From contig NW_027266297.1 in the NCBI RefSeq assembly GCF_022045235.1, positions 3,038,001 through 3,102,000 on the forward strand: a stretch of DNA of 64,000 bases, given 5' to 3'. The stretch is from Haliotis cracherodii (lineage: Eukaryota). The notes under the pieces were generated by a model. It was given only the letters and a program-made list of their open reading frames with translations. It made no database searches and was not told where the DNA came from. The position numbers were made by a program, and so were the translations under genes. Within the stretch, counting starts at the first letter, position 1. Every line of letters starts with the position of its first letter. Of this stretch, positions 57 to 40,277 are shown piece by piece.

Positions 57-3000
57 GTAATGCCAGTGACCCAATACTCCCTACGTCACCTAACTGGTCT
101 CATCTCATTCCAATTCCAGACTTTCCTTGACTGGGCTTCTCCACAACCTACGTCCGTGGACATCTCTCCAACACTAAGCTGACACACTGGGAAATAACTG
201 AGATACTGTTCAAAGTGGCACAAGCCCAGTTTACCCAAACTCTGGAATGTTTGTGAAAGCTGTCATACTGACATGTATTGCACATGCATTTGCTAAACCT
301 CTGGGTGCGGTTGTACAAAACAACCTCAATGCTACGACTATCGTAAGTCTATGTAAGGTATGGGAGTTACGATCAACTTAACGCTAAGATCGCTTTGTAC
401 AACAGCACCTAGGTGGGTTTTGGGTAGTTTTCCCAATACCTTCAATCTTGCACTTTCATTGTCTTTAATATCATTGTCCATTCTTTCACATTGTCGACAT
501 ACTCAGACCTATTGACACTTGTTGGCATATGTTTATGTTTGGCATCCCACATACCAAGATGACCCTGAAGATGCGGGTTAAGACGGGTCTTCAGCAACCC
601 ATGATTTTTGTAAAAGGCGACTAAGCTTGTTGTAAGAGGTGACTAACAGGATCAGATGGTCAGACTCGCTGACTTGCTTGATGTATTTTGTTGTATCGGA
701 ATTGCGTGAATCGATGCTCATGAAATCAGTCACTGGATTGTCTGGTCCATACTCGATTATTTACAGACAGCCGTCAAATAGCTGGAATATTGCTGAGTGC
801 AGTGTTAAACAACAAACAAACAAACAAACAATACATGACACCAAGTATTTTTTGAGAGGCTATATGTTGAGATGTTTGTTTCAGACTCACCGGGAGGAGA
901 CACACAGTTACTACGTCCCCATGCGGCTGGAGAAGTTGGATGATCAGCGCCACCTGTACACGCTCTCCGACAACGTGGCTGTGTTCTACCTTGACTTCAA
1001 CAACTTCCTCCCAGGTAGGTTCATCTTAGTGCTTAGTAAATCATGTGGCAAACATTGGAGAGATAATGTTTCTTTATATCAGCTTAGGGGGGTGTAAGTA
1101 TCAGACGTTTTTCCTCTTAACTTCTTCTGCAGTAGATGTTTGCAATGAAACCATGGTAACAGTCACATCACCAATGATGTGTTGTAGACGGCCTGTTCTA
1201 TCGGATCCTGACCCGAGCAATCAGGTGGTCCCAGGACAGTGGAGGCCGAGACCCCTATCTCTACAGTCGAATAGCCAAATTCTTTCTGGACGACTCTCAT
1301 GACTTTGTGTTGGAACTGTCACCTAGAGCGTACCACAGATTAAAGGTAGGTCTTGCTTAGCATACCACAGATGAAAGGTAGGTCTTACTTAGCATAACAC
1401 AGATGAAAGGTAGGTCTTGCTTAGCATACCATGGGTTAAGGTAGGTCTTACGTAGCATACCACGAGTTAAAGGTAGGTCTTGCTTAGCATACCACAGATG
1501 AAAGGTAGGTCTTGCTTAGCATACCATGGGTTAAAGGTAGGTCTTGCTTAGCATACCATGGGTTAAAGGTAGGTCTTGCTTAGCATACATTGGGTTAAAG
1601 GTAGGTCGTGCTTAGCATACCATGGGTTAAAGGTAGGTCTTGCTTAGCATACCTTGGGTTAAAGGTAGGTCTTGCTTAGCATACCACAGGTTAAGGGTAC
1701 TCTAGCTGTTCATGCCACATGGTGAACATCACAGAGTAGTAAATGGGAATATATATTCATTCAGAAGAGATGTTTCTAGTTTGAAGGTATGTACAGAGAT
1801 TAAAGTGCCATGATTTGTTTCACTTGTACATGTGGATGTGTTTCAGGTTGTCGTCGTGGGCATCTCCGACTCCATCTACACCAACCCTGGCTACAACCCC
1901 CTCTCCGCAGCCTGTGCCAAGGTTAATCTCCATTCACTGACATCTGTTTTACTATAAATTATTTAAAGTAAAGCAGTAGTTCATAAACAGACTAAGGATG
2001 CATTCGATAGGGCCGAACATGAGCAGATCTGGACAGTGAATCATGATTGTTTATTTCTTGTTTGTTTGTTTTTAACGCCTCACTCAGCAATATTCCAGCA
2101 ATATGATGGCGGACTGAAAAATAATCGAGTCTGGACCAGACAATCCAGTGATTGACATCATGAGCATCTATCCATGCAATTGGGATACCATGACATGCAC
2201 CAACAAACCTGACCCATTAGTCGCCTCTTATGACTAGCATAGTTACCTTTTATGGCAAGCATGGGTTGCTGAAGACCTATTCTACACTGGATCTTCACAG
2301 TTCGAATCATGATTATCTCCCTTTGATTACCAAAGTCATAATTGGTTGTGACTTTCTGCATCCAGGTGCGGAACTTCCTGGAGTCTACACTGACGGACCT
2401 GCGGCAACTGTGGATGAAGAGGATTGCCTGCAAGATGTGTCTGCGATGTACGTGTGACAAGGTGTGTGAGCGGCACGGCCTGGCCGGGTGTACCCAGGAG
2501 GCCTGCCTTCACTTCCTGGACCTGGACGAATGTCTCACCTCCAAGGTAGGATGTCACAGTTGTTTAATACCACACTCCGCTCTCTTCCAGCTGTATGACA
2601 GCACCTTGCAGTCAAGGCCTCGCCTCTGTGGTCTAGTGGTAGAGCGTCTGCCTGGAGAGCAGAAGATCGGGGTTCGATCCCTGGCCGCGTCATACCAAAA
2701 GACGTTAAAAGATGGTACTTCTTGTTACTCTGTCTGGCGCTTGGCATTAAGGGGCTAAAAAAGGGTTGGTTGGCTCGGAGTCAGTTTACCGTGTCTGAGT
2801 GGGGTATTCATGTTGAACTGCTGTTAGGTATGTCAGTGGGCTAGCACTGTAAATCAGTTCGGACAGTCACACGCACACACAGACACCTCTATATAAGTGC
2901 AATAATCTTAGACGCGACGTTAAACCCGATTTCACCTCACCTCACCCGCAGTCAAATCTGGACTCCAATCATCCATGCTGTCAGGGAACATGAAAAAAAC

Positions 3001-6000
3001 CAAGTCACCGAGATTCACCACTCAATCGACTTAGACGCCTCTTACAACCATCATGGGTTACTAAAGGAACAGTTTAACCCAGAATCCCTACAGAGTGTCT
3101 TGTCAGGGTGTCTGACCATCAATGTGAGATCCAAGTGTCTGACGCCGTCACCCAGGATTTTGGCTGAAACAATGTGTAAGGTAGCATGACATGCACTCAG
3201 ATCACCTGTGTCTCCCCACAAGGCATGATACAGTGTTGTAGACTCAGAAGAACTATAGCCAGCCCTGATGTCAGGTCCTCACCAGTGTATGTGAATGTAT
3301 CTGCGGACTGCATTAGAAGTCATCTATTGTTGTTCCAGATTGTTTGCTGTGAACATAGACGGGTGAAAACTGCTGATGTAAGGAAATGGTTTCCTCAACC
3401 CAAAATAGGTAATGGTCTGGAGCATTTCCCTTCCCAATGATAAAAAATTATGTGAGATGTTCAGATAAAGATTTAAAGAATTCTGGATAAGTTTCATGTG
3501 AATATTAATGCCTTTTCTTCAAATTGTTGCTCCTTGTGCAAGGGGATGAAACAAGTTGTCTTGAGTAGTACATATGCAACAAGTTGAAGAACACCCACAA
3601 TTGGAAGGCTGAGTGTTGCAACACCCACCAACCATGACAGCTAAAATCTTATGAAACAATTTAGTTTTTTTGAGAGGTATAGATTGCTGTTTGATTTGCT
3701 CTGTAGATATAAGGAAATATGTAACTATTCCATGCTTGCATTTTCCTGAGAAATACACCATAATCATGGGGCAAATTTCAACAATATCATCTTTTATAGG
3801 ACTTGCTGTCTGTAAGGTCAAATGATGCACTTGTTCTCCAGATATGCCTGAACCGATACTGCCTCGATTGACGTTGGAGATCACAGGGGGCAACATAGAG
3901 AAGAACGTCCCGAACCTGCCGTCCTGGATGAAGGGGGCGGCCAAGCTGCTCAACAGTGGGGCCGACGAACAGGACTGGGCGGCGCTGGCAAAACTCATGG
4001 GTAGGTAGGACTAGGTACCAGGGGTCAAGATGACTGTAAACTCATGGGTAGGTAGTACTAGGTACCAGGAGGTCAAGATGACCGTAAACTCATGGGTAGG
4101 TAGAACTAGGTACCGGGGATCAAGATGACTGTAAACTCATGGGTAGGTAGTACTAGGTACCAGGAGGTCAAGATGACTGTAAACTCATGGGTAGGTAGTA
4201 CTAGGTACCGGGGATCAAGATGACCGTAAACTCATGGGTAGGTAGTACTAGGTACCAGGAGGTCAAGATGACCGTAAACTCATGGGTAGGTAGTACTAGG
4301 TACCAGGGGTCAAGATGACTGTAAACTCATGGGTAGGTAGTACTGGGTACCAGGGATCAAGATGACTGTAAACTCATGGGTAGGTAGTAATAAGTACCAG
4401 GAGTCAAGATGACTGTAAACTCATGGGTAGGTAGTACTGGGTACCAGAGGTCAAGATGACCGTAAACTCATGGGTAGGTAGTACTAGGTACCAGGGGTCA
4501 AGATGACCGTAAACTCATGGGTAGGTAGTACTGGGTACCAGGGGTCAAGATGACCGTAAACTCATGGGTAGGTAGTACTGGGTACCAGAGGTCAAGATGA
4601 CCATAAACTCATGGGTAGGTAGTACTGGGTACCAGAGGTCAAGATGACCGTAAACTCATGGGTAGGTAGTACTAGGTACCAGAGGTCAAGATGACCGTAA
4701 ACTCATGGGTAGGTAGTACTAGGTACCAGAGGTCAAGATTACCGTAAACTCATGGGTAGGTAGTACTAGGTACCAGGGGTCAAGATGACCGTAAACTCAT
4801 GGGTAGGTAGTACTGGGTACCAGGGGTCAAGATGACCGTAAACTCATGGGTAGGTAGTACTAGGTACCAGGAGGTCAAGATGACCGTAAACTCATGGGTA
4901 GGTAGAACTAGGTACCGGGGATCAAGATGACAGTAAACTCATGGGTAGGTAGTACTAAGTACCAGGAGTCAAGATGACTGTAAACTCATGGGTAGGTAGG
5001 ACTAGGTACCAGAGGCCAAGATGACTGTAAACTCATGGGTAGGTAGTACTGGGTACCAGAGGTCAAGATGACCGTAAACTCATGGGTAGGTAGTACTAGG
5101 TACCAGAGGTCAAGATGACCGTAAACTCATGGGTAGGTAGTACTAGGTACCAGGGGTCAAGATGACCGTAAACTCACGGGTAGGTAGTACGAGGTACCAG
5201 CGGTCAAGATGACCGTAAACTCATGGGTAGGTAGTACTAGGTACCAGGAGGTCAAGATGACCGTAAACTCATGGGTAGGTAGTACTAGGTACCAGGGGTC
5301 AAGATGACCGTAAACTCATGGGAAGGTAGTACTGGGTACCAGGGGTCAAGATGACTGTAAACTCATGGGTAGGTAGTACTAAGTACCGGTAGTCAAGATG
5401 ACCGTAAACTCATGGGTAGGTAGTACTGGGTACCAGGAGTCAAGATGACTGTAAACTCATGGGTAGGTAGTACTAGGTACCAGGGGTCAAGATGACCGTA
5501 AACTCACGGGTAGGTAGTACGAGGTACCAGAGGTCAAGATGACTGTAAACTCATGGGTAGGTAGTACTAGGTACCAGGAGGTCAAGATGACCGTAAACTC
5601 ATGGGTAGGTAGTACTAGGTACCAGGGGTCAAGATGACCGTAAACTCATGGGTAGGTAGTACTGGGTACCAGGGGTCAAGATGACTGTAAACTCATGGGT
5701 AGGTAGTAATAAGTACCGGTAGTCAAGATGACCGTAAACTCATGGGTAGGTAGTACTGGGTACCAGGAGTCAAGATGACCGTAAACTCATGGGTAGGTAG
5801 TACTGGGTACCAGGAGTCAAGATGACCGTAAACTCACGGGTAGGTAGTACTAGGTACCAGGGGTCAAGATGACCGTAAACTCATGGGTAGGTACTAGGTA
5901 CCAGAGGTCAAGATGACCATAAACTCATGGGTAGGTAGTACTAGGTACCAGGGTCAAGATGACTGTAAACTCATGGGTAGGTAGTACTAGGTACCAGGGG

Positions 6001-9000
6001 TCAAGATGACCGTAAACTCATGGGTAGGTAGTACTGGGTACCAGGGGTCAAGATGACTGTAAACTCATGGGTAGGTAGTAATAAGTACCGGTAGTCAAGA
6101 TGACCGTAAACTCATGGGTAGGTAGTACTGGGTACCAGGAGTCAAGATGACCGTAAACTCATGGGTAGGTAGTACTGGGTACAAGGAGTCAAGATGACTG
6201 TAAACTCACGGGTAGGTAGTACTAGGTACAAGGAGTCAAGATGACCGTAAACTCATGGGTAGGTACTAGGTACCAGAGGTCAAGATGACCATAAACTCAT
6301 GGGTAGGTAGTACTAGGTACCAGGGTCAAGATGACCGTATACTCATGGGTAGGTAGTACTGGGTACCAGGAGTCAAGATGACCGTAAACTCATGGGTAGG
6401 TAGTACTGGGTACCAGGAGTCAAGATGACCGTAAACTCATGGGTAGGTAGTACTGGGTACCAGGAGTCAAGATGACCGTAAACTCATGGGTAGGTAGTAC
6501 TGGGTACCAGGAGTCAAGATGACCGTAAACTCACGGGTAGGTAGTACTAGGTACCAGGGGTCAAGATGACCGTAAACTCATGGGTAGGTACTAGGTACCA
6601 GAGGTCAAGATGACCATAAACTCATGGGTAGGTAGTACTAGGTACCAGGGTCAAGATGACTGTAAACTCATGGGTAGGTAGAACTAGGTACCAGGGGTCA
6701 AGATGACCGTAAACTCATGGGTAGGTACTAGGTACCAGAGGTCAAGATGACCATAAACTCATGGGTAGGTAGTACTAGGTACCAGGGTCAAGATGACTGT
6801 AAACTCATGGGTAGGTAGTACTAGGTACCAGGGGTCAAGATGACCGTAAACTCATGGGTAGGTAGTACTGGGTACCAGGGGTCAAGATGACTGTAAACTC
6901 ATGGGTAGGTAGTAATAAGTACCGGTAGTCAAGATGACCGTAAACTCATGGGTAGGTAGTACTGGGTACCAGGAGTCAAGATGACCGTAAACTCATGGGT
7001 AGGTAGTACTGGGTACCAGGGGTCAAGATGACTGTAAACTCACGGGTAGGTAGTACTAGGTACTAGGGGTCAAGATGACCGTAAACTCATGGGTAGGTAC
7101 TAGGTACCAGAGGTCAAGACGACTGTAAACTCATGGGTAGGTAGTACTAGGTACCAGGGTCAAGATGACCGTAAACTCATGGGTAGGTAGAACTAGGTAC
7201 CAGAGGTCAAGATGACCGTAAACTCATGGGTAGGTAGTACTAGGTACCAGAGGTCAAGATGACCGTATACTCATGGGTAGGTAGTACTGGGTACCAGAGG
7301 TCAAGATGACTGTAAACTCGTGGGTAGGTACCACATGGTCAAGTGGCCATTACATCAATGGCGATGGTGTAGGTTTAACAAAACACATGACAGTATACAA
7401 TGTTTACTCATTGTACTGCTGATGTGTGCCGAAAGGGAATTCAATTGTGAGGCTCTGTGATGCTTTTAGTGTCACTCGATGACTATCTTTAAAGGTTTTG
7501 GTTTTAGACTTCTGAAAACACCATCATGAGAGAAACTGCTATCTGTAAAATGGCCAAGTAAACCTTTATGGGAAACCTTTATTATATTTTTATGCAGATT
7601 TATCAAATTGCAGGAGGGAGGTATTATTTTCAATTCATTGCTGATTTAATATTTGACCAGGTTTGTTTGTTTGTTTGTTGTTGTTTAACGTCACACTCAG
7701 CAATATTCTAGTTATATGATGGCGGTCTGTAAATAACCGAGTCTGGACCAGACAATCCACTGATTGACATCATGAGCATCGATCCACGTAATTGGGATAC
7801 GATGGCATGCATCTAACCAAGTCAGCGAGCCTGACCACCCGATCCCATTAGTATCCTCTTACGACAAGCATAGTAGCCTTTTACAGCAAACATGAGTTGC
7901 TGAAGACCCATTCTAACCCCAGATCTTGACAAGGTTGGCCAGATGCATATTTGAGTTATTTCACTGGAATGTACTTTGTTTAAGAATCATCAAATTACTT
8001 GGGATTTTTTGCATTAAATGAATCACTCATAAAATCCCAAACATTCAATGCCAGATTCAACAAGTTAACAACTATTCATTATCAAAACACTTCTAGGAAA
8101 TCAGTTTTACAAAACAGAAAAATATCTAAATCTTTTGAAAAATGATATGGTGAGGGTGATATTTTCTACAGGTATATTATGTTAATTATTTAAAAAAAAA
8201 TTGTCAGTATTTAATTCCACAGATGTTTCCTAGAAAATGATTCAGGTAGTCTGTGTCCACATTAGTTGCAGACATTAGGCTTGTATTCAGAGTATTTGTC
8301 TTGTAAAAGTTAGAAGGAATCATCTAGATTTTAGAAATACTTACCAATGGAAATGAGTGATAGTGTGAATTCTATTGCTAGATGCACGTGTTGACTACCA
8401 TGAACCTAAGTTCACTCTATACCGTAGAGGCACATAGAGTATCACCCACCAAAGTCAACAGCTGAGCATTGCAATGTACAGTTAAACACTGTTGTGTCGA
8501 ATGTTGATGTGTCAAACTTACACTTGTTTCAAAGTAAAAGCTTGGTCCTACCGTATTCCTTCTTTAGTCATCATTTCCGTTTGTGTCGAACCTTGGATAA
8601 CTTGAAGTATTTACGTAGGCCTCTTCAACTTCGACAGCGGTGTTGGACGGAAGGTACATTAATCTTGAACGCAAAGTTAAACCCCATTTAACCTCACCTC
8701 AACCTTTATGTACATTTGAGCATTTGACCTTGGAAGTGGTGAATCATACAATATATCAGCAAGTTTGACTTTCAATAATTGGTTAGACCACTCGCATGTA
8801 CGATCATCCGAGTTGCGCAGTGACCATGGAATTAGAAAATCGTTAAGATCTGCCTGTTTGTCCTGCAGGTTACAAACAGGCTCGGATTGACCAGATCAAC
8901 GAGGATCTGAACCCAGCCCTGGCCCTGCTGACCGACTGGGTGCTGACCAGCGGGAACAGCTCCCTCTCGGTCGACCTCATGATGGTGTTCCTGGAACAGA

Positions 9001-12000
9001 TCAATCGAGACGACATTGTGGACGTCATCCAGAAGGCCAAGGGTTCGTGTCGCTTTGCATGATTCAGTCATTACTCTCACATCCACTGCTTACCTAGAAA
9101 TTCAATAACCACAAACCAGATTCATGTGGAAGTGCACCATTAGGCTTGACAACTTGGTATGCAACGATGCCAATGTACTGTCACTGCAGCGCATATGTGA
9201 AACATGCCTTTGATATTGTCCCCAATCCCATGTCGGCAGCCTCAAGCAGCGCCAGATTTGTTCACACTTCACATTTTCAGACTACCAGTCTATCGGGTTA
9301 ATACGTAGTGGAGGATGCAGTATATATACTACTCAAAAGAAGAACTTTAAGGATCACCCAGTTCTTTCATATTGGTAATGTTAATCTGTCATGGCATGAG
9401 AGATTAACTATTGTAATATGAAAGAATCCAGGTGATCCTTAACTTCTTTTGAGTAGTATATACTGACGGAAATAAATAAGGGAACACTTAGTTACAGACA
9501 CTGTAAAATGACATGCTGTCATGTGTTCCCAAATACATGTTGGAAACATTGCACACATACACATCTCACCATTTGATTCTGATGTGTTGAATTTGTATGC
9601 ATGCTATTTCAAAAGTACTGACAGTAAAGTTTATTCCCCTGTATTTTTTCAATGGTCCCTTAATGGTTTCCATCAGTATGAGTGGCACATTTAGATTTTT
9701 TTATCCTGCTCTGGTTGTTACATACTCTTTTTAGTCTTACTTCATTTTTGAAACCTCTCGTGAAACCATTTGTCTTTTGAAGCTGAGCATGCAAGTTAAA
9801 TATCTTAAATGGTTGCTAAGACACCTATATACTCACCAGCAAAAGAAACACAAATACCATAAATGTTAGCTCATATATGAAGAATTGCTCTTATTCAACA
9901 GATATTAGTTTGGTTTGATGCACAAATAAACCTACTGGTATGTTGTGTGAAGTGAATGTATGCATAACTTATGACGTCATAGATCCATGACTTGAGATGC
10001 ACTATTTGTCTCATACAGGATTAGCATGTAAAGTTTAGAAAACCTTTTTGCAGAATATAATAAGAGTAAAGACATTCTATGGTAACACTTGACTGATTGT
10101 TTTGTCATTAAGTGGTACACATTGGAAACATCTCTTCTTATACTTACTTCTCTCTATGTTTCTATGGTTGCATTTCTGTTGGCGGTGAGTATGTATAGTA
10201 TATATTGAAATAAATAGTATTGAACATTGAAGGCAAGCTACAGTGCCTCTTGTCTGTATGTTTGTAACAGAGTTACAAAGGCAAGCTACAGTGCCTCTTG
10301 TCTGTATGTTTGTAACAGAGAGTTACAAAGGCAAGCTTCAGTGCCTCTTGTCTGTATGTTTGTAACAGAGAGTGAGTCAGACCTGCCGCAGATCTTCCTG
10401 AGCTACCAGTGGGACTCCCAGGATGACGTCCAGAGTCTCCGGGCACGCCTGGAGAGGGCGGGTTTCACCTGCTGGATGGACATTGGTCAGATGGGTGGCG
10501 GGGATCAGCTCAACCTCAAGATCGATGAGGGCATTCGGAACTGTGTGGTGAGTTGGTAAAGATGATGTCAGAGAAGATAGAATGTGAGCTGGGCTTACAC
10601 AACAGTGAGACAACACAAGGGTGCTGTAAGCGTGTATATTTGTTGTTGTTAAAGCCACACTCAGCAATATTCCAGCTATATGACGGCAGTCTGGACCAGA
10701 CAATCTGACAGATTAATATCATGAGCATCGATCCACGCAACTGGGATACAATGACATGCATCAACCAAGTCAGCAAGCCTGACCACCCGATCCCGTTAGT
10801 CGCCTTTACGGCAAGAATGGGTTGCTGAAGACCTATTCTAACCCGGATCTTCACGGGTAGTGCTGTAAGCAGTATTTAAGTTACATTACTGCATGTGAGT
10901 TTGATGCGGGAGGAAACCCCCAAGTGATGCAGGTACTTCACCCCAAATGTCATCATTTTTTATGAATGATTACAACACTGAGCCATAATTATGGTAATAC
11001 TTACGAATCTTCTACCTCTAAAACATCATTGACAAATTCCTGTAATTTGCCTGCAATCTCACTAAACTAAACAATTCTTATGAAATCTCTACCTCTATCT
11101 ATCTCTGCTATAAATCTTGTATTTTGGCTTCAATCACACTAACTAAAACTTTCAGATTTTCTGCACAAGTCCTCTTCAATGTCAACTATACAACATCAGT
11201 TGTCCGGCAATAGCACTCAATTACCCCAAGGTATTCTAGTGTGTGAAGGCGACAGAAACCTCACTTCTTCCCTGTGTATGTACTGCTCCTCCAGCAGTCA
11301 CACTATTCTTGTCCATTTCAGTAAAGAGGCTTATTACTCTAAAGTAGTAGTCTTATTGGCTGCTTATAGTACATGAGTATTAAGTAAGTAATAATGGAAG
11401 ATATACTCCCACTACCTCCTCGTCGAGATCTTCTACATCAACCTAGGTCAGACATCTTCTACGAAAATCTTTCCAGCCCAAATCTCACTGCCTGGAAGTT
11501 TTCTCGCAAAAGATGCAAGCCTCCTGATTCTCTGATTCTGCCTCAGAAACTGTGGCTAAATCATGGAGGAGAGCTATCTCCATCTCCCCATCTCCCTCTA
11601 CCTCCCCCCCCCCTCTATCAGCAATGAAATGGGAGTTCTAAAGAAGGTATCACACATTGACATTTTATTCCACTGCATGATTTCAAATAATTCAATGAAT
11701 GTAAACTCTTTGGGATTTGAAGCTGATTTATAATGAGGGAATCACAGGAAGGTAATTGCTGTCAACTATACAGGGAGTGTTCTAGAGGCAGAACCCACCT
11801 TTCCCTCCGGTATATTCTGGCAATAATGTAATAGAGGTAGAGGATTTGTAAGAATTATCAAACAATAGTTGTTATTGTTAATGATTCTAAGAATACTACC
11901 TCTATTACATCAGAAGTACTCCCTCCCACCTCCAAGATCATCTGTCTCCAGTTGATTGATGAGTGGAAAGATGTGAGGTTTCTCCTGCCTTCATATACGA

Positions 12001-13342
12001 GAGTGCCATGGGCTAAATGAGTGCTATTGCGGGACAACTGATTGTTGTGTAGTTGACAGTGAAGAGAACTTTTGTTGAAAATCGGAAAGTTTAGTTTAGT
12101 GTGATTGACACCAAAATACAGGAATTTGGCAGTGATGTAAAAGTTATAGTATTCTTACAATTAGTAACAATGATATTGTTTGATGTTTGTACACTACATT
12201 TGTACACTCTGCCCGGGGTGGCTCAGTCGTCTAATGCGCGATTCATTGTGCAGAGTTACGTCCCTTGGGCACGCCAGAAACCCATGATTGTGGGTTCAAA
12301 TCCTGGTTCGCCCCGATTATGTTTCTTGGTTTGTCAGCACCATACCCGTGCTCATTGGTTTCACCCACGTGGTCTGAGACCTGCACCACTTCGGGCTCTC
12401 CTCCAACATTAAGCTGACACGCCGCGATATTACTGGAATACTGTTAAAAGCGGCATAAAACCCAACTCACTCACTCACACAATGTACATTCTGCCCACAG
12501 CTGTTCGTCTCCTGCATCACGCCCAAGTACGTGGTGTCCCACCACTGTAACCGCGAACTGGCCTTGGCAGACATCTTGAAGAAACCCATCATCCCTGTCA
12601 TGTTTGAGTCCGTCGTCTGGCCGCCACCTGGGGGCATGTCTGTCATCCTCTCTCAGCTCGTCTATATCAATATGAAAGGTAATTGAATGTTCAAAATGAC
12701 ATTTTGTGTCTCAAGAAGTTTCCAAGCCACAAGTGACATACTTGTGTTGCTCTAAATTTAAATTTGTATTGACTAAGTTAGTTACCACCTGTTATCATGT
12801 AGAACAGTGCATAATACATGAAAAATGGGTGTTGAATTCTTACTAAATAGAAAATTGTTGAAGACAGTTATCAATAATTCCAAGACCATGTTCCTCCAAC
12901 TTTAATCAGTGACGCTGTGATATAACTGAAAGCAGCACTAAACAACTCACTCGATAACATACCCCCATCCCTTGCAGGTGTCGGAGGTCACGGTGGCAGC
13001 GGGGTCCATGCTGACCTCCAGGACAAGCATAATGAAATCATCAACCGGATCCTCCTGTACACCATGCCTGCCGTCCAGCCTTGCATCGACTCCTCCGTCA
13101 CAGTTACCGACATCAGCAAGCAGCAGGACCTGGGCAGCGAGAGCCTGTATGACACCAGTCTCAGTTCTCTCACAGAACCAGACATCCCCCTGCTCCAAGA
13201 GGTGTACCACGCACCCCCCAGCCCCCGTCGCAACCCCGTCGTCGCGCCGCAGCCAGAACCTGCTCAGCGAGCAGCAGCAGCAGCAACAAGGAACGTGGAG
13301 CAGGTTCATGTGACGAAGTGTGCAGTATGTGTAATACTGTAG
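4..13342 (+). CDS. ROCO-like protein, 3' part (COR - death domain - TIR_2 - CaaX), 11 exons, 5' end outside window
   Basis: Phase-consistent GT-AG exons: 4-56, 885-1014, 1188-1345, 1847-1921, 2366-2545, 3339-3408, 3842-4000, 8869-9042, 10369-10547, 12501-12678, 12978-13342. COR-like motifs LMDKFDLIC, YYVP and FLPDGLFYRIL; death domain DWAALAKLMG...PALALLTDW...LEQINRDDIV; TIR IFLSYQWDSQ...CWMDIGQMGGGD...SHHCNRE...PIIPV; ends CVIL*. Confidence 0.88.
301..412. mobile_element. Small MITE
   Basis: Imperfect TIR ctgggtgcggttgtacaaa / tttgtacaacagcacctag. Confidence 0.6.
563..830 (+). mobile_element. SINE-like family A copy
   Basis: Matches 7 other copies in the window (core cagcaacccatg...aaaggcgactaa; tail gctggaatattgctgagtg...(aaac)n). 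Confidence 0.8.
885..1014 (+). CDS. ROCO-like exon (THREETHSYYVPMRL...FNNFLP)
   Basis: tttcag|...ccag|gtaggt, phase 0 to 1. Confidence 0.88.
1188..1345 (+). CDS. ROCO-like exon (DGLFYRILTRAIRWSQ...AYHRLK)
   Basis: ttgtag|...aaag|gtaggt, phase 1 to 0. Confidence 0.88.
1331..1697 (+). repeat. 32-bp minisatellite, about 11 copies, spanning an exon/intron junction
   Basis: Unit taccacagattaaag|gtaggtcttgcttagca. Confidence 0.95.
1847..1921 (+). CDS. ROCO-like exon (VVVVGISD...AACAK)
   Basis: tttcag|...aag|gttaat, 75 nt, phase 0 to 0. Confidence 0.82.
2058..2300 (-). mobile_element. SINE-like family A copy
   Basis: Reverse-complement match to 563-830. Confidence 0.8.
2366..2545 (+). CDS. ROCO-like exon, Cys/His-rich (VRNFLES...DECLTSK)
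   Basis: tccag|...aag|gtagga, 180 nt. Confidence 0.88.
2616..2947 (+). mobile_element. tRNA-derived SINE with Meta-like central domain
   Basis: A box tggtctagtgg, B box ggttcgatccc, core gtcataccaaaagacgttaaaagatggtac, (cctca)n tail, TSD gcagtcaa. Confidence 0.8.
3339..3408 (+). CDS. ROCO-like exon (IVCCEHRR...KWFPQPKI)
   Basis: ttccag|...tag|gtaatg, phase 0 to 1. Confidence 0.85.
3842..4000 (+). CDS. ROCO-like exon, start of death domain (…AAKLLNSGADEQDWAALAKLM)
   Basis: ctccag|...atgg|gtaggt, phase 1 to 1. Confidence 0.88.
3991..7331 (+). repeat. 47-bp minisatellite, about 70 copies, each containing the exon end and 5' splice site
   Basis: Unit aaactcatgg|gtaggtagtactaggtaccaggggtcaagatgaccgt. 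Confidence 0.97.
7662..7932 (-). mobile_element. SINE-like family A copy
   Basis: Reverse-complement match to family A. Confidence 0.8.
8869..9042 (+). CDS. ROCO-like exon, death domain (GYKQARIDQ...DIVDVIQKAK)
   Basis: ctgcag|...aagg|gttcgt, phase 1 to 1. Confidence 0.88.
9329..9456. mobile_element. Tc1/mariner-type MITE
   Basis: TIR ctactcaaaagaag..ttaaggatcacc / ggtgatccttaacttcttttgagtag, TA flanks. Confidence 0.75.
9463..9676. mobile_element. Tc1/mariner-type MITE
   Basis: TIR ctgacggaaa..taaggga / tcccttaatggtttccatcag, TA flanks. Confidence 0.65.
9832..10189. mobile_element. Tc1/mariner-type MITE
   Basis: TIR ctcaccagcaaaagaaa / tttctgttggcggtgag, TA flanks. Confidence 0.6.
10230..10372 (+). 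repeat. 48-50 bp triplication containing the 3' splice site of the TIR exon
   Basis: cttgtctgtatgtttgtaacagag three times (AG ending at 10270, 10318, 10368). Confidence 0.9.
10369..10547 (+). CDS. ROCO-like exon, TIR N-half (IFLSYQWDSQ...IDEGIRNCV)
   Basis: taacag|...gtg|gtgagt, TIR box 1 motif. Confidence 0.9.
10639..10857 (-). mobile_element. SINE-like family A copy
   Basis: Family match; flanking direct repeat gtgctgtaagc. Confidence 0.82.
10990..12125 (+). mobile_element. Internally deleted DIRS1-like retrotransposon remnant
   Basis: Long inverted repeats (about 11115-11228 vs 12010-12122); 11832-11859 complementary to 10992-11019; decayed peptide LPLPPRRDLLHQP...LTAWKFS resembling the end of the DIRS pol ORF. 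Confidence 0.6.
12211..12478 (+). mobile_element. tRNA-derived SINE, possibly V-domain-like
   Basis: A box tggctcagtcg, B box ggttcaaatcc, shared tail, (actc)n end, diverged TSD tgtaca(c/t)tctgccc. Confidence 0.72.
12501..12678 (+). CDS. ROCO-like exon, TIR C-half (LFVSCITPKYVVSHHCNRELALA...VYINMK)
   Basis: ccacag|...aaag|gtaatt, phase 0 to 1. Confidence 0.9.
12978..13342 (+). CDS. ROCO-like terminal coding exon (GVGGHGGSG...TKCAVCVIL*)
   Basis: ttgcag| acceptor, open to TAG at 13340-13342. Confidence 0.88.
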
Positions 13343-13837
13343 CCCTGAAGGACTTTACTATACAGGGCTCCAAGTGTGCAGTATGTGGCATATTGTGTAG
13401 CCCAGAGGAACTGTCACAGCTTCGAAGGACTTCACATAGTTTGTCTTTCACTCATGTCAACAAACTCAAAATCCAGTAAATTGCGACTGGAAGTGTTTTG
13501 TTTGTGAATACAGATTACTGTGTATTTGTGACATGGTAACATTGTTAGTGAGGATGGTATGTACTCTTTCACATGATCAAGTTGAGGACCAGGATTCCAG
13601 GATTGCCAGTATTCATTTCAAGTGCTATTCCACCCTTATACTGAATTTTAGGAAGAATGATCTTTTATTCATGCTTTGGAGCTGGCTGACTGAATTTGGT
13701 GTTTAGCTCAAAACCAAAATGAAACAGCTCATGATGAAATCACTGTAGGTGTCCAATGAATGATCATTATCAGTGATTGGCAAGTGGATTAATAGGACTC
13801 CTTATCATATGGACTGGACTCAATGCATTCAGTTTAC

Positions 13838-14670
13838 CATCAAGGTCACCATTGCTACTGGAACATGGATACTCCTGTGGGCATTGGTACCATCAAGGTC
13901 ATCATTGCTCCTGGAACATGAATACTCCTGTGGACATTGGTACCATCAAGGTCATCATTGCTACTGGAACATGGATGCTCCTGTGGACATTGGTACCATC
14001 AAGGTCATCAATGCTACTGGAACATGGATACTCCTGTGGACATTGGTACCATCAAGGTCATCATTGCTACTGGAACATGGATACTCCTGTGGACATTGGT
14101 ACCATAAAGGTCATCATTGCTACTTGAACATGGATACTCCTGTGGACATTGGTACCTTCAAGGTCATCATTGCTACTGGAACATGGATACTCCTGTGGAT
14201 ATTGGTACCATCAAGGTCATTGCTACTGGAACATGGATACTCCTGTGGATATTGGTACCATCAAGGTCATCATTGCTACTGGAACATGGATACTCCTGTG
14301 GACATTGGTACCATCAAGGTCATTGCTACTGGAACATGGATACTCCTGTGGACATTGGTACCATCAAGGTCATCATTGCTACTGGAACATGGATACTCCC
14401 GTGGACATTGGTACCATCAAGGTCATTGCTACTGGAACATGGATACTCCTGTGGATATTGGTACCATCAAGGTCATCATTGCTACTGGAACATGGATACT
14501 CCTGTGGACATTGGTACCATCAAGGTCATTGCTACTGGAACATGGATACTCCTGTGGATATTGGTACCATCAAGGTCATCATTGCTACTGGAACATGGAT
14601 ACTCCTGTGGACATTGGTTCCATAAAGATCTTCAGGGCTACTGGAATGTGAATACTTCTGTAGACATTGT
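13838..14670 (+). repeat. 53/50-bp minisatellite, about 16 copies, in probable 3' UTR
   Basis: Unit catcaaggtc(atc)attgctactggaacatggatactcctgtggacattggtac. Confidence 0.95.
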
Positions 14671-26060: not shown

Positions 26061-28452
26061 AGACATCAACACAGTGAGAACCCTGCTAATTGAAATCTTA
26101 ACATCTATGTGCGATGCATAGGGAAGTCAATTTACAGTCTCACTTAACCATAACGAAACATTAACAAATAATTTTTTACTTTTTGTGTTTGGTAAATGTG
26201 GCACTTTGACAAATGGTGATGGTAATGTCCTACACAACACAAGCTTTAACAATTTTGTTATAGTCCTCTGTATTGCAACACATGCATAAATCAACAGTGA
26301 CTCATCTTGCATTGGAAAAATAAACAACAACAAAACTACCCTTTGTAAGGACTCCAGTTGTGAGTCAGCTGTAAGTTCACTTCCCAAACTACAAAAACGG
26401 AATCTCACGAGACACCTGTATGGCCTGAGACGTAATAAATACTAGTGTAAGTGATAACGTGACACATGAGTTGTTGGTGGATGAATGAAGGTGATTATGT
26501 CAATGATCGCTGAACAAAGACTCAGTGTTAAACACAACAGACCTGTGGAATCAGCAAGATATGTAAATATCGGATTGAATGCCGACAATAATCTCGTATT
26601 CACTACAAGTGAACATCGACTATGAATATGCTCTCAGCTTTTGTCCAATCACCAGTTAAAATATCTAAATAATGTCCATATTTGGAAAATATCTCCTTTA
26701 AAATTATGCATAATATAAAATTTCTCCACATTGTTAAAAGTGGGTCTTTTCCATAACATTCAAATATACATAATACAACAGACTGACGTAAAATTGTGTA
26801 TCATAAATGCTAAAATCTCAATTGGTGACTCAAATTTGCCTGCCAAACGAAACAATCTTTACAAGCGTGTCAAAATTAATAGGTGCAAGTTACGTGACCA
26901 CTAAGAATTTCTTCTTTATGCAAGTATCAACTTTCAAGAAAGGATTCATACATATTATTCAAATAATAAATATATTTAAAATTCAAAATGCCTAATAAAT
27001 TCTGATTAATATTCAAGAAGTGAAGTATTTAATGTAAAGTGAAGTGTTGAAAGTAAAGAGTGAAGTCTTGGTTGGACTGAGCTGAAACATTACCAAATGT
27101 TCTCGAGTGGAAAAAACAACCTGTTTAGCATCAGCTGCCATTTTGTCAACAAGTTAGCAATTCGTTTTAAGGATGGGACATTTTAAAGAATTGTGAACTG
27201 CAAACAACCTGATAACGTAATAACTTAAATAAATAGGTTCTATGAACAACGCGTAAGCAATTAATGGAAGAGGGACTACCCCTTCATACCCCCCCTCCCC
27301 GTCCCCCATCCTTTGTCCCCCTCCCCTGTCCCCTTGCCGTAATACACATATCACAGAACGGTTCTCAGACATAGCCTCGTTCAACTGCTGGGGATTTCAC
27401 ATGTTAAACATTAAGTCACAAGAGTCAGTGCTAACTCACTTCCTCAACAATCCAACAGATTTTGTGTTATAAAGTTAGTGGATTAGCAAGAAACATATAA
27501 AAAATTGTTATTTTAAATTTATGGTAACATTAAACATGATAAGAAAACACTATGCAATCATACACTTACTTGCAATTTTTCATTATGCTACACTGAATTT
27601 TCTAAGCTATTTTGAAAATTATGCTACCAAAACATCTGCTACGTTGTATTCGAAGTTGAAAGTCCAGATTGGAGAGAGTTCAATTTAGAACTGAGAATTT
27701 CTCATTCTCGGTAGACTAGATATGTCTAGTCGTCTCTAGAAGAGAATTGTCTGAGCGAAGATACTCGAACCAAACATTTGCAATGATATAGTTTGACGGA
27801 ATTGAAGTAATGAAAATATCACAGTTGTCACACACGACCCACTTCAAGCTGCTTGCTAAATCTTTAAATTATTGGTTAAATCAAAATGCCCCAAATATGC
27901 AATAATCACATATACAAATGAACTATCCTTGTTGTGGGCAAAACACACTCTCCTGTTGTGTACAGTTTGCCATTTTGACATATATCAGTTGTTTTAGTCA
28001 ATATATCTACACAAGTCTTTGTCTCTATGCAACTGATCGAGGGAGCTCAGCAAGAGTTATCCCCCTTGTCCATAATGTTAATCACAATGAGTGTCAGAGT
28101 ATGCCGCATTGGCTAGAAGGACAGGTAACACATTATGTGGAGATCATTCTATCATCGTCGTCAACAACAGCATTGTCACTGTTAGCAGTTCGTCATGCCA
28201 CTGGGGTTACATGGCACAGCCAAGCTCAATCAGATGTTCGTTGGTAGCTCGCCGCTTGTGCCATTGCCGTGCTCTTCCCTGAGTGAATTTCATGTGCAAC
28301 TGAAAATAATGAGTTTATCGTCTAGCTTCTTCAAGTATCCATCAACGCACAGACATTTTGGCCGGCCATGACCAAACGAGAGCCAGCATTTGTAGAGTTG
28401 TCATAATTGTTGTCAGCTCAAACACATCGCTACTATCATCTACACGGAGGCT

Positions 28453-37957
<9,505 letters not shown>

Positions 37958-40277
37958 CTGAAATATGAATTGATCATTAAACTCTCGGAACCAAAAAATC
38001 ATAATTCTTCCTGGTAAAATTAGTCAACAAAACTTCACAAGGTAATATGAAAACAACATCCGCAACATTCTCTGGAAATGAAATCCTGTTCCCCATAATT
38101 TCATATTCCCTTCTAGCTTCATGCTTACATTGTTATGAAAACATGTGACTCACGTAATTTCCTGAGAATCTCAAACAAAAAATAACTGTTTAGCAAGAAA
38201 ATGAATAAATCTCAAAATAGCCAGTCTAAAAAATATTGTATTCCCAGACAACTGCAGATATGACCCAAATCCCAAATCTCACCTCCAATCACAATAAACC
38301 ACTTGTCCAACATGATGATTCTATTCACCAGAGCAATTCACACCTGACCACTGATAGTAAAAATGTGCCGGACACTAAGCAGGTATAATAATCCCTCACG
38401 TTATCTATGACAGAATTCAGTGATGAAAACCTCCAGGGATCTGCTCATTCAGGTCAAAAAGCTTTAGGTGCCAATATCCTCCATGGCCCATGTTGTCCCA
38501 TCTCAACATGAGGCGCCTGTGTACGCTGTTTCCCTCCATGTGGCCTTTCTGTTTATACTGGCACAGCAGGAGCTCCTAATGGTCTCATTCTGCCTCCTCA
38601 GGTGCTCCTGCAGGACCTGGACTGAAGCAGCAGGTGCCCTTGCTATGTACACAGTCTCAGTAGGTGCCCTGTTGGATTCCTGAACTGAGCGTAATGCAGG
38701 TAGCCAATCAGTGCCCACAGTGAGCAGGTCCCGTGGAGGTCCTGAGGAGGTCTTGGGCAGATGATCCTGGGACACTCACTGGACAAGCCTCCTGCTGTGC
38801 TGTGTCCACCCTAAGCTTGATATTAATAGCAACCTCAGGACAATTTTGACAGATCTTCAACACAGCAGGTAGCTCAGCTTGTGGGATGCTCAACTGAGAA
38901 GCAGCAATCATCCCCAAGGTGTCCAGTTCACGCGTCACCCACACCAAATCCTCTCAACTATTTGGTGAACAAGTTCCAACTGAGAACCAATTCATGGCTC
39001 CTTCGTCTTTGACCAGGCATTAACTAACGGAATCATTAGATAAACACCACTTAGCAATAAAGGAACTTTTCCCCTTCAATTTACCTTCATGATAGAACAA
39101 TTTCAGGTCCTCATGAACTTGAAAAAGGAGTCCAACACAAGTCTAGAATGATTTGGCAAGTCTAGATTACCTCAGCTCTGAAATTAAGGATTTTCCTGGG
39201 CTCCAGTTGGATTTTATTATTTTTATTTTGTAGATATATTAAAAATATATATTTTAAATAAGATAACTTTATTTCTGGGACTAAATATCAGTCAAGGTAT
39301 ACATAATAGTTACACAGACAAACTTCTCCCAATCCCTTATTCTCAAATCAATTCATACAGAAAACAAGATCAGTCATTTATATCGCTGAAGGTTCATTAG
39401 CGACTCTGTGCGGAGGTATGATATTATCAGTTAATCCCTGAAAAGCTCTACTGGGCACCGTTTAGCCGCATGTTTATACGTTTAGCACCATGTTTATACG
39501 TTTAGCCCCATGTTTACATGATCAAACCAAAACAGAAACACATAATAGGCGACACTAGGTGGTTAACACTACCAACTATGATCACAAGTTGCTGCACAAC
39601 AAATCATGACCATTAAGCTTGTTTACAATGCCTAATGCCAAATTACAATACCATGAATGGCTGGTGATCTATGCCCACATAACAAGTGTTAATATCATTT
39701 GATGAATGAAAGCCGATGAGTATCAAATCACTTGTTTACACAACTGTCATTGATAGCTACGACAGATAAATGTTGCTGTCAATGGTCGGTGATCTATAGC
39801 AGATAACACAACTATCACAGGCGTGGAGACCCGGGAAGTCACTCAATATGCTACTCACGTTTGACCACAAGTATTATAGAGGGCCGGGCGAGTGGGACGA
39901 CCCTGTATTACAGTAGTAAATATCTCTCTGTGATGTGGTCTATCTTAGACCCCCTTGTCCCTACACTCGATGGGATTCAACGACTGGAGTGTCATTGGGT
40001 TCACATGCATCAAGGCAGGAAATGGTAGAAGTATTAAATATTATACCCAATGTAACAGATTTATACCAAACAAATATCCTACTAGAATATATTCTGACAT
40101 TTTCCACGTTGGTATTATCCAAAGCATATTGTCACTTAAGAATAAAAGTTTGTTATTACCCAAACCATTTTTTTACATAAGAATCCTAAACGTTGTGTTC
40201 CTCATAATATAGAAGTTGACATACATAAATTCTCTTCCTTATGTGTATCACTTCTAAATGCTTTTCAAAGACTTGAC

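What the first reader, a model, noticed from the sequence alone, without database searches (positions are those of the whole stretch)
3991..7331. About 70 perfect decoy donors inside the death-domain intron
The 47-bp unit is the last 10 exon nt (AAACTCATGG), then GTAGGT, then intron sequence. About 70 donors with the same local context as the real one follow it over 3.3 kb. Read-through hits TAG two codons later (GGT AGG TAG), which would cut the death domain and remove TIR and CaaX. Units also contain AG|GT motifs resembling recursive sites, but without a pyrimidine tract. Variant units recur 372 bp apart (5708/6080; 5886/6258), indicating 8-unit higher-order duplication. Copy number could act as a U1 sink or an expression rheostat (inference).
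Basis: partly seen in the sequence, partly recalled or inferred. Interest (0 to 1): 0.7.

Follow-up and report, generated by a model that had tools for sequence, protein, structure and literature searches.

The report
Abalone splice-donor minisatellite ("mirage")
The end of one exon of an abalone signalling gene, splice signal included, is copied 71 more times into the next intron, but the RNA assemblies of related abalones join at the first signal, so the copies are likely idle repeat DNA of a kind already known from lancelets and human genes.

Summary
The array is real: 72 donor-bearing units (44-48 bp) at 3991-7330, GTAGGT intact in 71 of 72, found only at this locus. It starts 10 nt inside exon 17 of a 21-exon Haliotis Neuralized-Roc-COR-Death-TIR-CaaX gene. 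One RNA-type contig from a relative joins the first donor (4000) to the acceptor (8869) with no unit inserted, and two more leave the genome at the same place. This layout is known: amphioxus 'mirages' and the human F7 intron 7 VNTR, where the first site wins and copy number (1-12) did not change site choice. It is common in this genome: arrays cover 14% of the surveyed gene DNA and span 7 of 169 other donors. The gene itself is a hot spot (7 of 40 boundaries, about 0.8 expected). The donor is no better conserved than the rest of the unit, the AG|GT motifs are not acceptor-like, and the 372-bp match is one of several irregular block duplications. A sink or rheostat role has no support here, but rare or decay-prone products are invisible to these data. 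The scan noted the same kind of repeat before, in this genome and others. Ordinary; new member of a known kind.

The parts
3842..4000 (+). Coding exon 17 (159 nt; start of the death domain, ends ...K-L-M-G, phase 1)
   Evidence: contigs of runs X1, X5, X6 match 3840-4002
3998..4006 (+). Real splice donor TGG|GTAGGT, inside unit 1
   Evidence: score 5.13, 32nd percentile of 184 predicted donors
3991..7330 (+). Donor-spanning minisatellite: 71 full units of 44-48 bp and a partial 72nd; 70 intact GTAGGT copies after the real donor
4004..4006 (+). Second codon after the junction (AGG); the in-frame TAG follows at 4006-4008 on read-through
   Evidence: K-L-M-G-R-stop
7331..8868 (+). Unique 3' part of intron 17 with a SINE-like repeat (about 7670-7930) and the acceptor ...GTCCTGCAG
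   Evidence: acceptor score 9.56, best in the intron
8869..9042 (+). Coding exon 18 (rest of the death domain)
   Evidence: Pfam Death E 9e-6; contigs of X1 and X7
1327..1699 (+). Second donor-spanning array of the same gene (32 bp x 11.7, donor of exon 13 at 1345)
10230..10373 (+). Acceptor-spanning array (50 bp x 2.9); the last copy holds the acceptor of exon 19 at 10369
10369..12678 (+). TIR exons 19 (10369-10547) and 20 (12501-12678)
   Evidence: Pfam TIR_2
12978..13342 (+). Last coding exon, ends C-V-I-L-stop (CaaX-type motif; prenylation predicted from own knowledge, untested)

Best explanation
A 47-bp piece spanning the exon 17 donor was duplicated in place and grew into a 72-unit minisatellite, likely by slippage and unequal exchange, and the spliceosome uses the first donor while the 70 copies likely stay silent and near neutral. 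Shown: the unit is a copy of the local boundary, occurs nowhere else in the genome, and the first donor is the one joined to exon 18 in contigs of relatives. Inferred: the first donor wins because it is transcribed first and is the only one paired with a strong acceptor 159 nt upstream (exon definition, oriented scanning as in F7); any stray use of a copy would stop translation two codons on, four exons before the end, and would be removed by nonsense-mediated decay. Inferred: the array persists through the high minisatellite turnover of this genome, not through a function.
For: Junction: the 4,202-nt contig of run X1 matches 3840-4002 at record 1113-951 and 8868-9042 at record 953-779; the 3-nt overlap is the shared G|GT, so no unit lies between. 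Contigs of X5 and X6 also stop at 4002, and in 4 of 4 runs the depth of bin 3982-4037 equals 21/56 of the exon contig's depth, i.e. no cover past 4002. KLMG-YKQ is uninterrupted in 5 of 5 full-length Haliotis protein models from four species. No special conservation of the donor: 2 of 22 variant alleles fall in the nonamer (4.2 expected), and 14 of 47 nine-base windows are as conserved or more (on the 55 units of 47 nt). Commonness: one array start per 3.8 kb of intron, 14% of 522,749 surveyed bases; 7 of 169 donors of unrelated genes are spanned, with up to 58 and 85 units. Precedent: in F7 minigenes the most upstream site was used even when pseudo-sites were made TGG/gtaggt, and 1-12 monomers did not change the choice.
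Against: The RNA evidence is contigs labelled 'RNA?' from relatives (2-6 other letters per exon), which drop rare forms; the joint tables were cut to 15 of 190 and 15 of 161 rows by SINE matches, so a rare copy-to-exon-18 joint could be hidden. Run X1, which closes the junction, has no cover on the units, though X7 of the same coded organism has. The real donor is middling (32nd percentile) and 6 copies (CGG|GTAGGT, 6.81) score higher. In human IFI6 (6-16) and CBS the nearest copies are used (stated in PMC1557585). F7 was tested to 12 copies only, in mammalian cells. The protein models are predictions. The units are shared with at least three other coded organisms, which shows persistence.
Confidence: 0.8

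Rival explanations
1. Leak or rheostat: a share of transcripts uses the nearest copies (or the array slows intron removal), the products are destroyed by NMD, and allele length tunes the level of this Roc-Death-TIR protein.
For: 70 intact copies with the same or a better score than the real donor; every read-through ends at the same stop; proximal copies are used in IFI6 and CBS; an intronic 38-bp VNTR alters TERT splicing, by G-quadruplexes (PMC11830802, abstract only). Decayed products would not show in contigs.
Against: First-donor joint in contigs; a single contig covers the start of exon 18 in X1 and X7 (depth 21.5 and 8.48 = 55/63 of 24.6 and 9.71); donor not selectively conserved; no copy-number effect in F7. 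If only the nearest copies leak, total length should not matter.
Confidence: 0.12
2. U1 sink or local U1 shield: the copies bind U1 snRNP and either titrate it or protect the intron from premature cleavage and polyadenylation.
For: 71 U1-complementary sites in 3.3 kb; U1 protection of introns is established (own knowledge).
Against: U1 is far more abundant than the nascent transcripts of one gene (own knowledge), so a global sink is implausible; the 4.9-kb intron holds one ATTAAA, no AATAAA; no selective conservation of the donor.
Confidence: 0.04
3. Seedbed for micro-exons: the CCAG|G in each unit acts as an acceptor and the next unit's donor closes a 25-27-nt exon; in the six 48-nt units this would add nine residues in frame within the death domain.
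For: 45 unit AGs score above 3 as acceptors (3.0-5.2); 6 give in-frame 27-nt exons, 39 give frameshifts. Matches the intron-gain model drawn for mirages (PMC3087553).
Against: The in-frame sites score 3.0, near the 5th percentile of predicted acceptors; no pyrimidine run over 3 nt; no insertion in the X1 contig or in 5 of 5 protein models.
Confidence: 0.03
4. Assembly artefact: the array length is inflated.
For: Long tandem arrays are hard to assemble; no reads of this animal were laid.
Against: 37 distinct full-unit variants in a nested order among 71 units; units are present in runs of three other coded organisms.
Confidence: 0.01

Closest known systems
Human F7 intron 7 37-bp VNTR, with the IFI6 (6-16), CBS, LMNB2 and PDGF cases it cites (Borensztajn et al. 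2006, PMC1557585; parts 1-3 of 6 of the text read)
   Same: First monomer spans the exon-intron boundary; the donor is repeated down the intron; the most upstream site is used; the same nonamer TGG/gtaggt was tested there as a pseudo-site and not used.
   Different: 72 units here against 5-9 (F7) and at most about 25 in the cases cited; 10 exon nt per unit against 4; a mollusc; no minigene or population data here.
Amphioxus 'mirage' minisatellites (Adh3, globins BflGb6 and BflGb9, troponin C, PGBD5); passages read in PMC3087553 and PMC3902484; the original paper (Canestro et al. 2002) was not held and was not seen
   Same: Tandem units span an exon-intron boundary, on donor or acceptor side, several per gene; unit size within the 10-160 bp reported; normal splicing reported; edge units differ from the interior.
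   Different: Gastropod, not cephalochordate; higher copy number than the 3-6 of BflGb6; length instability not tested here.
Polymorphic intronic minisatellite of abalone TSSK1-like (PMC6905558, passages read)
   Same: Haliotis intron with a long minisatellite (27 bp, 62 copies shown) that varies between animals.
   Different: Not described as spanning a splice site in the passages read.
TERT VNTR6-1 (PMC11830802, abstract only)
   Same: Long intronic VNTR (38 bp, 24-66 copies) proposed to tune splicing and decay.
   Different: Works through G-quadruplexes according to the abstract; functional evidence exists there and none here.

Membership tests
Mirage / F7-type donor-spanning minisatellite | Head-to-tail array with a minisatellite-sized unit | tested here: met
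   Period 47, 71.4 copies, 92% matches
Mirage / F7-type donor-spanning minisatellite | First unit spans a real exon-intron boundary | tested here: met
   Unit 1 starts 10 nt inside exon 17; boundary fixed by protein models and contigs
Mirage / F7-type donor-spanning minisatellite | Splice signal repeated in the copies | tested here: met
   GTAGGT in 71 of 72 units
Mirage / F7-type donor-spanning minisatellite | Locus-specific, derived from the local boundary | tested here: met
   46 of 46 exact pattern matches in G000 lie in the array
Mirage / F7-type donor-spanning minisatellite | Main mRNA uses the authentic (first) site | tested here: met
   X1 contig closes 4000 to 8869; X5 and X6 stop at 4002; relatives' contigs only, rare forms not visible
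Mirage / F7-type donor-spanning minisatellite | Copy number varies between alleles or cells | tested here: inconclusive
   Summed depth on the units differs between organisms E and F (5 against 152, unique intron about 7), but the tool states this is no copy number; no second allele of this species seen
Recursive splice sites | AG|GT with a functional acceptor context upstream | tested here: not met
   Best acceptor score of any AGGT in the array 2.1, under the 5th percentile (2.9); longest pyrimidine run 3 nt
Recursive splice sites | Saw-tooth nascent RNA or intermediate joints | not testable with these tools
   Only contigs were available
Regular higher-order repeat | Fixed multi-unit period along the array | tested here: not met
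   Identical units at lag 8: 8, lag 15: 8, lag 18: 9, lag 7: 6; longest run 6 units at lag 18
Regulatory (splicing or expression) VNTR | Allele length changes isoform ratio or mRNA level | not testable with these tools
   No paired genotype and expression data
Roco-like protein (host gene) | Roc domain followed by COR | tested here: met
   P0005, identical to the spliced product: Neuralized, Roc, COR-A, Death, TIR_2 all over Pfam cut-off

The most novel reading that the evidence does not exclude
Splice boundaries, donors above all, are birthplaces of minisatellites in abalone, and this Roc-Death-TIR gene is an extreme hot spot (7 of 40 boundaries against about 0.8 expected; 7 of 169 donors elsewhere against 2.3). 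With 70 intact donor copies, the longest allele would push first-site selection to its limit, so that allele length sets how much message is lost to decay and thus the dose of an immune-type signalling protein.
Probability: 0.08. Interest if true: 0.55.

Novelty: new member of a known kind. Interest (0 to 1): 0.17.

Why it matters
As it stands it is a large, clean example of a known oddity. Its use is as a test case: 70 intact copies is well beyond the 12 tested for F7, so a minigene series would show whether first-site selection has an upper limit. The clustering of seven such arrays in one gene and the weak donor excess elsewhere bear on how these repeats are born, which PMC3087553 calls unclear. 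If allele length did tune expression, it would be a common kind of regulatory variant in a repeat-rich genome.

Tried and rejected
Self-sequestering of the copies by RNA structure: the unit holds near-palindromes and unit 1 breaks one, but unit 1 ranked 8th, 4th and 42nd of 72 in donor accessibility under three window sizes, and three units fold no better than shuffles (28 of 200 as stable): rejected. Recursive splicing and a regular 8-unit repeat: rejected. A general excess of arrays at splice boundaries: the 16-mer test gave 10 of 340 boundaries against a 2.1% intronic rate (P = 0.18); by TRF donors 7 of 169 against 2.29 (P = 0.009) but acceptors 1 of 171 against 2.34; a second set (myosin, DEAD) gave 1 of 75 donors against 0.46 and 0 of 59 acceptors against 0.40, underpowered and dominated by one myosin cluster: left open. 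No listed holder of the stretch is on record as RNA; runs guessed as RNA were used. A dispersed element as source: rejected. Protein search for the neighbouring phosphodiesterase gene was dropped; its exons were read from translations. Paper searches for a mollusc report (Haliotis + minisatellite + intron + splice; tandem repeat, splice junction, mollusc, exon-intron boundary, minisatellite, 4 of 5) listed none on splice-spanning arrays; the library lacks most subscription journals, and no supplements were read.
Full report
Observation. Tandem Repeats Finder reports 3991-7330, period 47, 71.4 copies, 92% matches. Parsing gives 72 unit starts, 71 full units of 44-48 nt and a partial last one; GTAGGT is intact in 71 of 72, TGG|GTAGGT stands in 65, CGG|GTAGGT in 6. 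A 24-nt unit pattern matches 46 times in the 1.18-Gb genome G000, always inside this array, and 0 times for the control. The 372-bp pairs are real, but identical runs are longer at lag 18 (6 units, 834 bp) than at lag 8 (4 units), so the array grew by irregular block duplications.

The gene. An exon query found Haliotis proteins. With 200 kb of upstream DNA the gene has 21 coding exons over 43.6 kb; the spliced product is identical over 1,263 residues to P0005, named as Haliotis cracherodii by its source, and 92-98% identical to the other four models (P0005 guided the boundary choice, so that identity is not independent for the boundaries). Pfam gives Neuralized, Roc, COR-A, Death and TIR_2; the protein ends CVIL. 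The array starts 10 nt inside exon 17 (3842-4000); intron 17 is 4,868 nt and splits the death domain. Read-through gives K-L-M-G-R-stop, four exons before the end, so use of any copy would likely lead to decay (inference).

Which donor is used. No run was on record as RNA; runs guessed as RNA, from relatives with 2-6 other letters per exon, were laid. In X1 one 4,202-nt contig (same run, length, depth and strand in both calls) matches 3840-4002 at record 1113-951 and 8868-9042 at record 953-779. The three shared letters are the G|GT common to both sides, so the first donor is joined to 8869 with nothing between. Contigs of X5 and X6 also end at 4002; for X12 only a piece to 3940 was listed. 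In 4 of 4 runs the depth of bin 3982-4037 equals 21/56 of the exon contig's depth. In X1 and X7 one contig accounts for the depth at the start of exon 18. Limits: contigs drop rare forms, decay would hide products of the copies, and the joint tables showed 15 of 190 and 15 of 161 rows, all from SINE matches. Unit sequence is covered in X7 (organism A), X18 (E) and X20 (F) but not in X1, so the array predates or is shared among these relatives.

Strength and conservation of the copies. Splice models were trained on the gene's 20 introns plus predicted boundaries of 184 family matches. The real donor scores 5.13, the 32nd percentile; six copies score higher (6.81), and TAG|GTAGGA four bases into unit 1 scores 5.78. 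Among the 55 units of 47 nt, 2 of 22 variant alleles fall in the donor nonamer (4.2 expected) and 14 of 47 windows are as conserved or more: no sign of selection for or against the copies. AG|GT motifs score at most 2.1 as acceptors, under the 5th percentile of 2.9. The CCAG|G of the units scores 3.0-5.2; 45 such sites could close 25-27-nt micro-exons, 6 in frame; none was seen in RNA contigs or protein models. Folding gave no stable difference between unit 1 and the rest.

How common. In this gene 7 of 40 boundaries are spanned by arrays: donors 5, 7, 13, 17 and acceptors 4, 11, 19, against 0.35 and 0.48 expected; without the focal array 6 of 39. For other genes I used 184 of 189 matches of three families (123 of 125 kinesin, 47 of 50 chaperonin, 14 of 14 aldehyde dehydrogenase); 28 of 368 boundaries were dropped as weak, distant or repeat-derived. 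Arrays cover 14% of 522,749 bases, one start per 3.8 kb of intron. A 16-mer test found 10 of 340 boundaries (9 of 169 donors, 1 of 171 acceptors) against 2.1% at intronic positions, P = 0.18. A TRF test found 7 of 169 donors against 2.29 (P = 0.009) and 1 of 171 acceptors against 2.34, with arrays of 17 to 85 units among the donor hits. A second set (58 of 117 myosin and 21 of 58 DEAD matches) gave 1 of 75 donors against 0.46 and 0 of 59 acceptors against 0.40. Boundaries in these surveys are predicted, the expectation is rough, and the donor excess is a post hoc split. So about 3-5% of donors carry such an array, the donor excess is only suggestive, and this gene is a local hot spot, 3 Mb from a contig end; the survey showed 4 of 77 hits within 4 Mb of a contig end against 4 of 188 beyond 10 Mb, too few to judge.

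Mechanism. Shown: local origin, repeated donor, first donor in the main RNA. Inferred: first duplication by slippage across the boundary, growth by unequal exchange, first-site choice by transcription order and exon definition, removal of leaks by decay, near neutrality. I put this at 0.8, a leak or rheostat at 0.12, a U1 sink or shield at 0.04, micro-exon use at 0.03.

Known kin. PMC1557585 (parts 1-3 of 6 read) describes the human F7 intron 7 VNTR: pseudo-sites are functional when the first is inactivated, do not compete otherwise, including when made TGG/gtaggt, and 1-12 monomers did not change the choice; it cites IFI6 and CBS, where the nearest copies are used, and LMNB2 and PDGF, where they are not. 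PMC3087553 and PMC3902484 (passages) describe amphioxus mirages with normal splicing; the original mirage paper was not held. Two searches for a mollusc report listed none on splice-spanning arrays. Earlier notes of this scan list the same kind of array in this genome and in sharks, an urchin and an annelid; I had reached this reading before opening them and did not check their loci.

Verdict. Observation confirmed, interpretation partly supported, new member of a known kind, interest 0.17. What stands out is only the size and the clustering in one gene.

Noticed in passing
G000:C34:3022755-3023258, 3026892-3026988, 3030595-3032534, 3036842-3037894 (upstream of the window, same gene): Four more boundary-spanning arrays: acceptor 4 (86 bp x 5.9, about 60 exon nt per unit), donor 5 (50 bp x 1.9), donor 7 (compound, 14 copies of about 55 exon nt plus donor), acceptor 11 (38 bp x 29).
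   Followed up: yes
G000:C34:3023368-3024933: 53 bp x 29 array that starts one base into intron 4; its copies lack the G of the donor GT.
   Followed up: partly
window 3339-3414: Tandem donors 6 nt apart at exon 16: contigs of X1, X5, X6 and X12 fit the 70-nt form, model P0005 uses the 76-nt form, and the two H. rufescens isoforms differ by two residues.
   Followed up: partly
window 28400-37957, minus strand: cAMP phosphodiesterase (PDE4-like by recalled motifs) exons; a G-rich array at 31194-31468 abuts the acceptor at 31191 and supplies its pyrimidine tract without copying the AG.
   Followed up: partly
window 13835-14669: 53 bp x 16 array about 490 nt after the stop codon, possibly in the 3' UTR.
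   Followed up: no
window 38460-39020, minus strand: G+C-rich stretch that looks like coding sequence inside the phosphodiesterase gene region; not translated.
   Followed up: no
L059 (G000:C74:4486-5433): Best kinesin match is intronless with 18 TAA and 2 TAG inside; looks like a ciliate-code contaminant contig. Left out of the survey.
   Followed up: no
G000:C12:46.06-46.20 Mb: About 20 near-identical DEAD-like matches with 6-7 TGA each at 4-5 kb spacing.
   Followed up: no
G000:C12:64.58-64.96 Mb: Tandem cluster of about 15 myosin-head genes.
   Followed up: no
L086-L088 region survey: G000:C23:58135673 and G000:C8:6493332: Kinesin genes with donor-spanning arrays of 33 bp x 58 and 34 bp x 85; the first keeps 41 near-copies of the boundary 16-mer within 3 kb.
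   Followed up: partly
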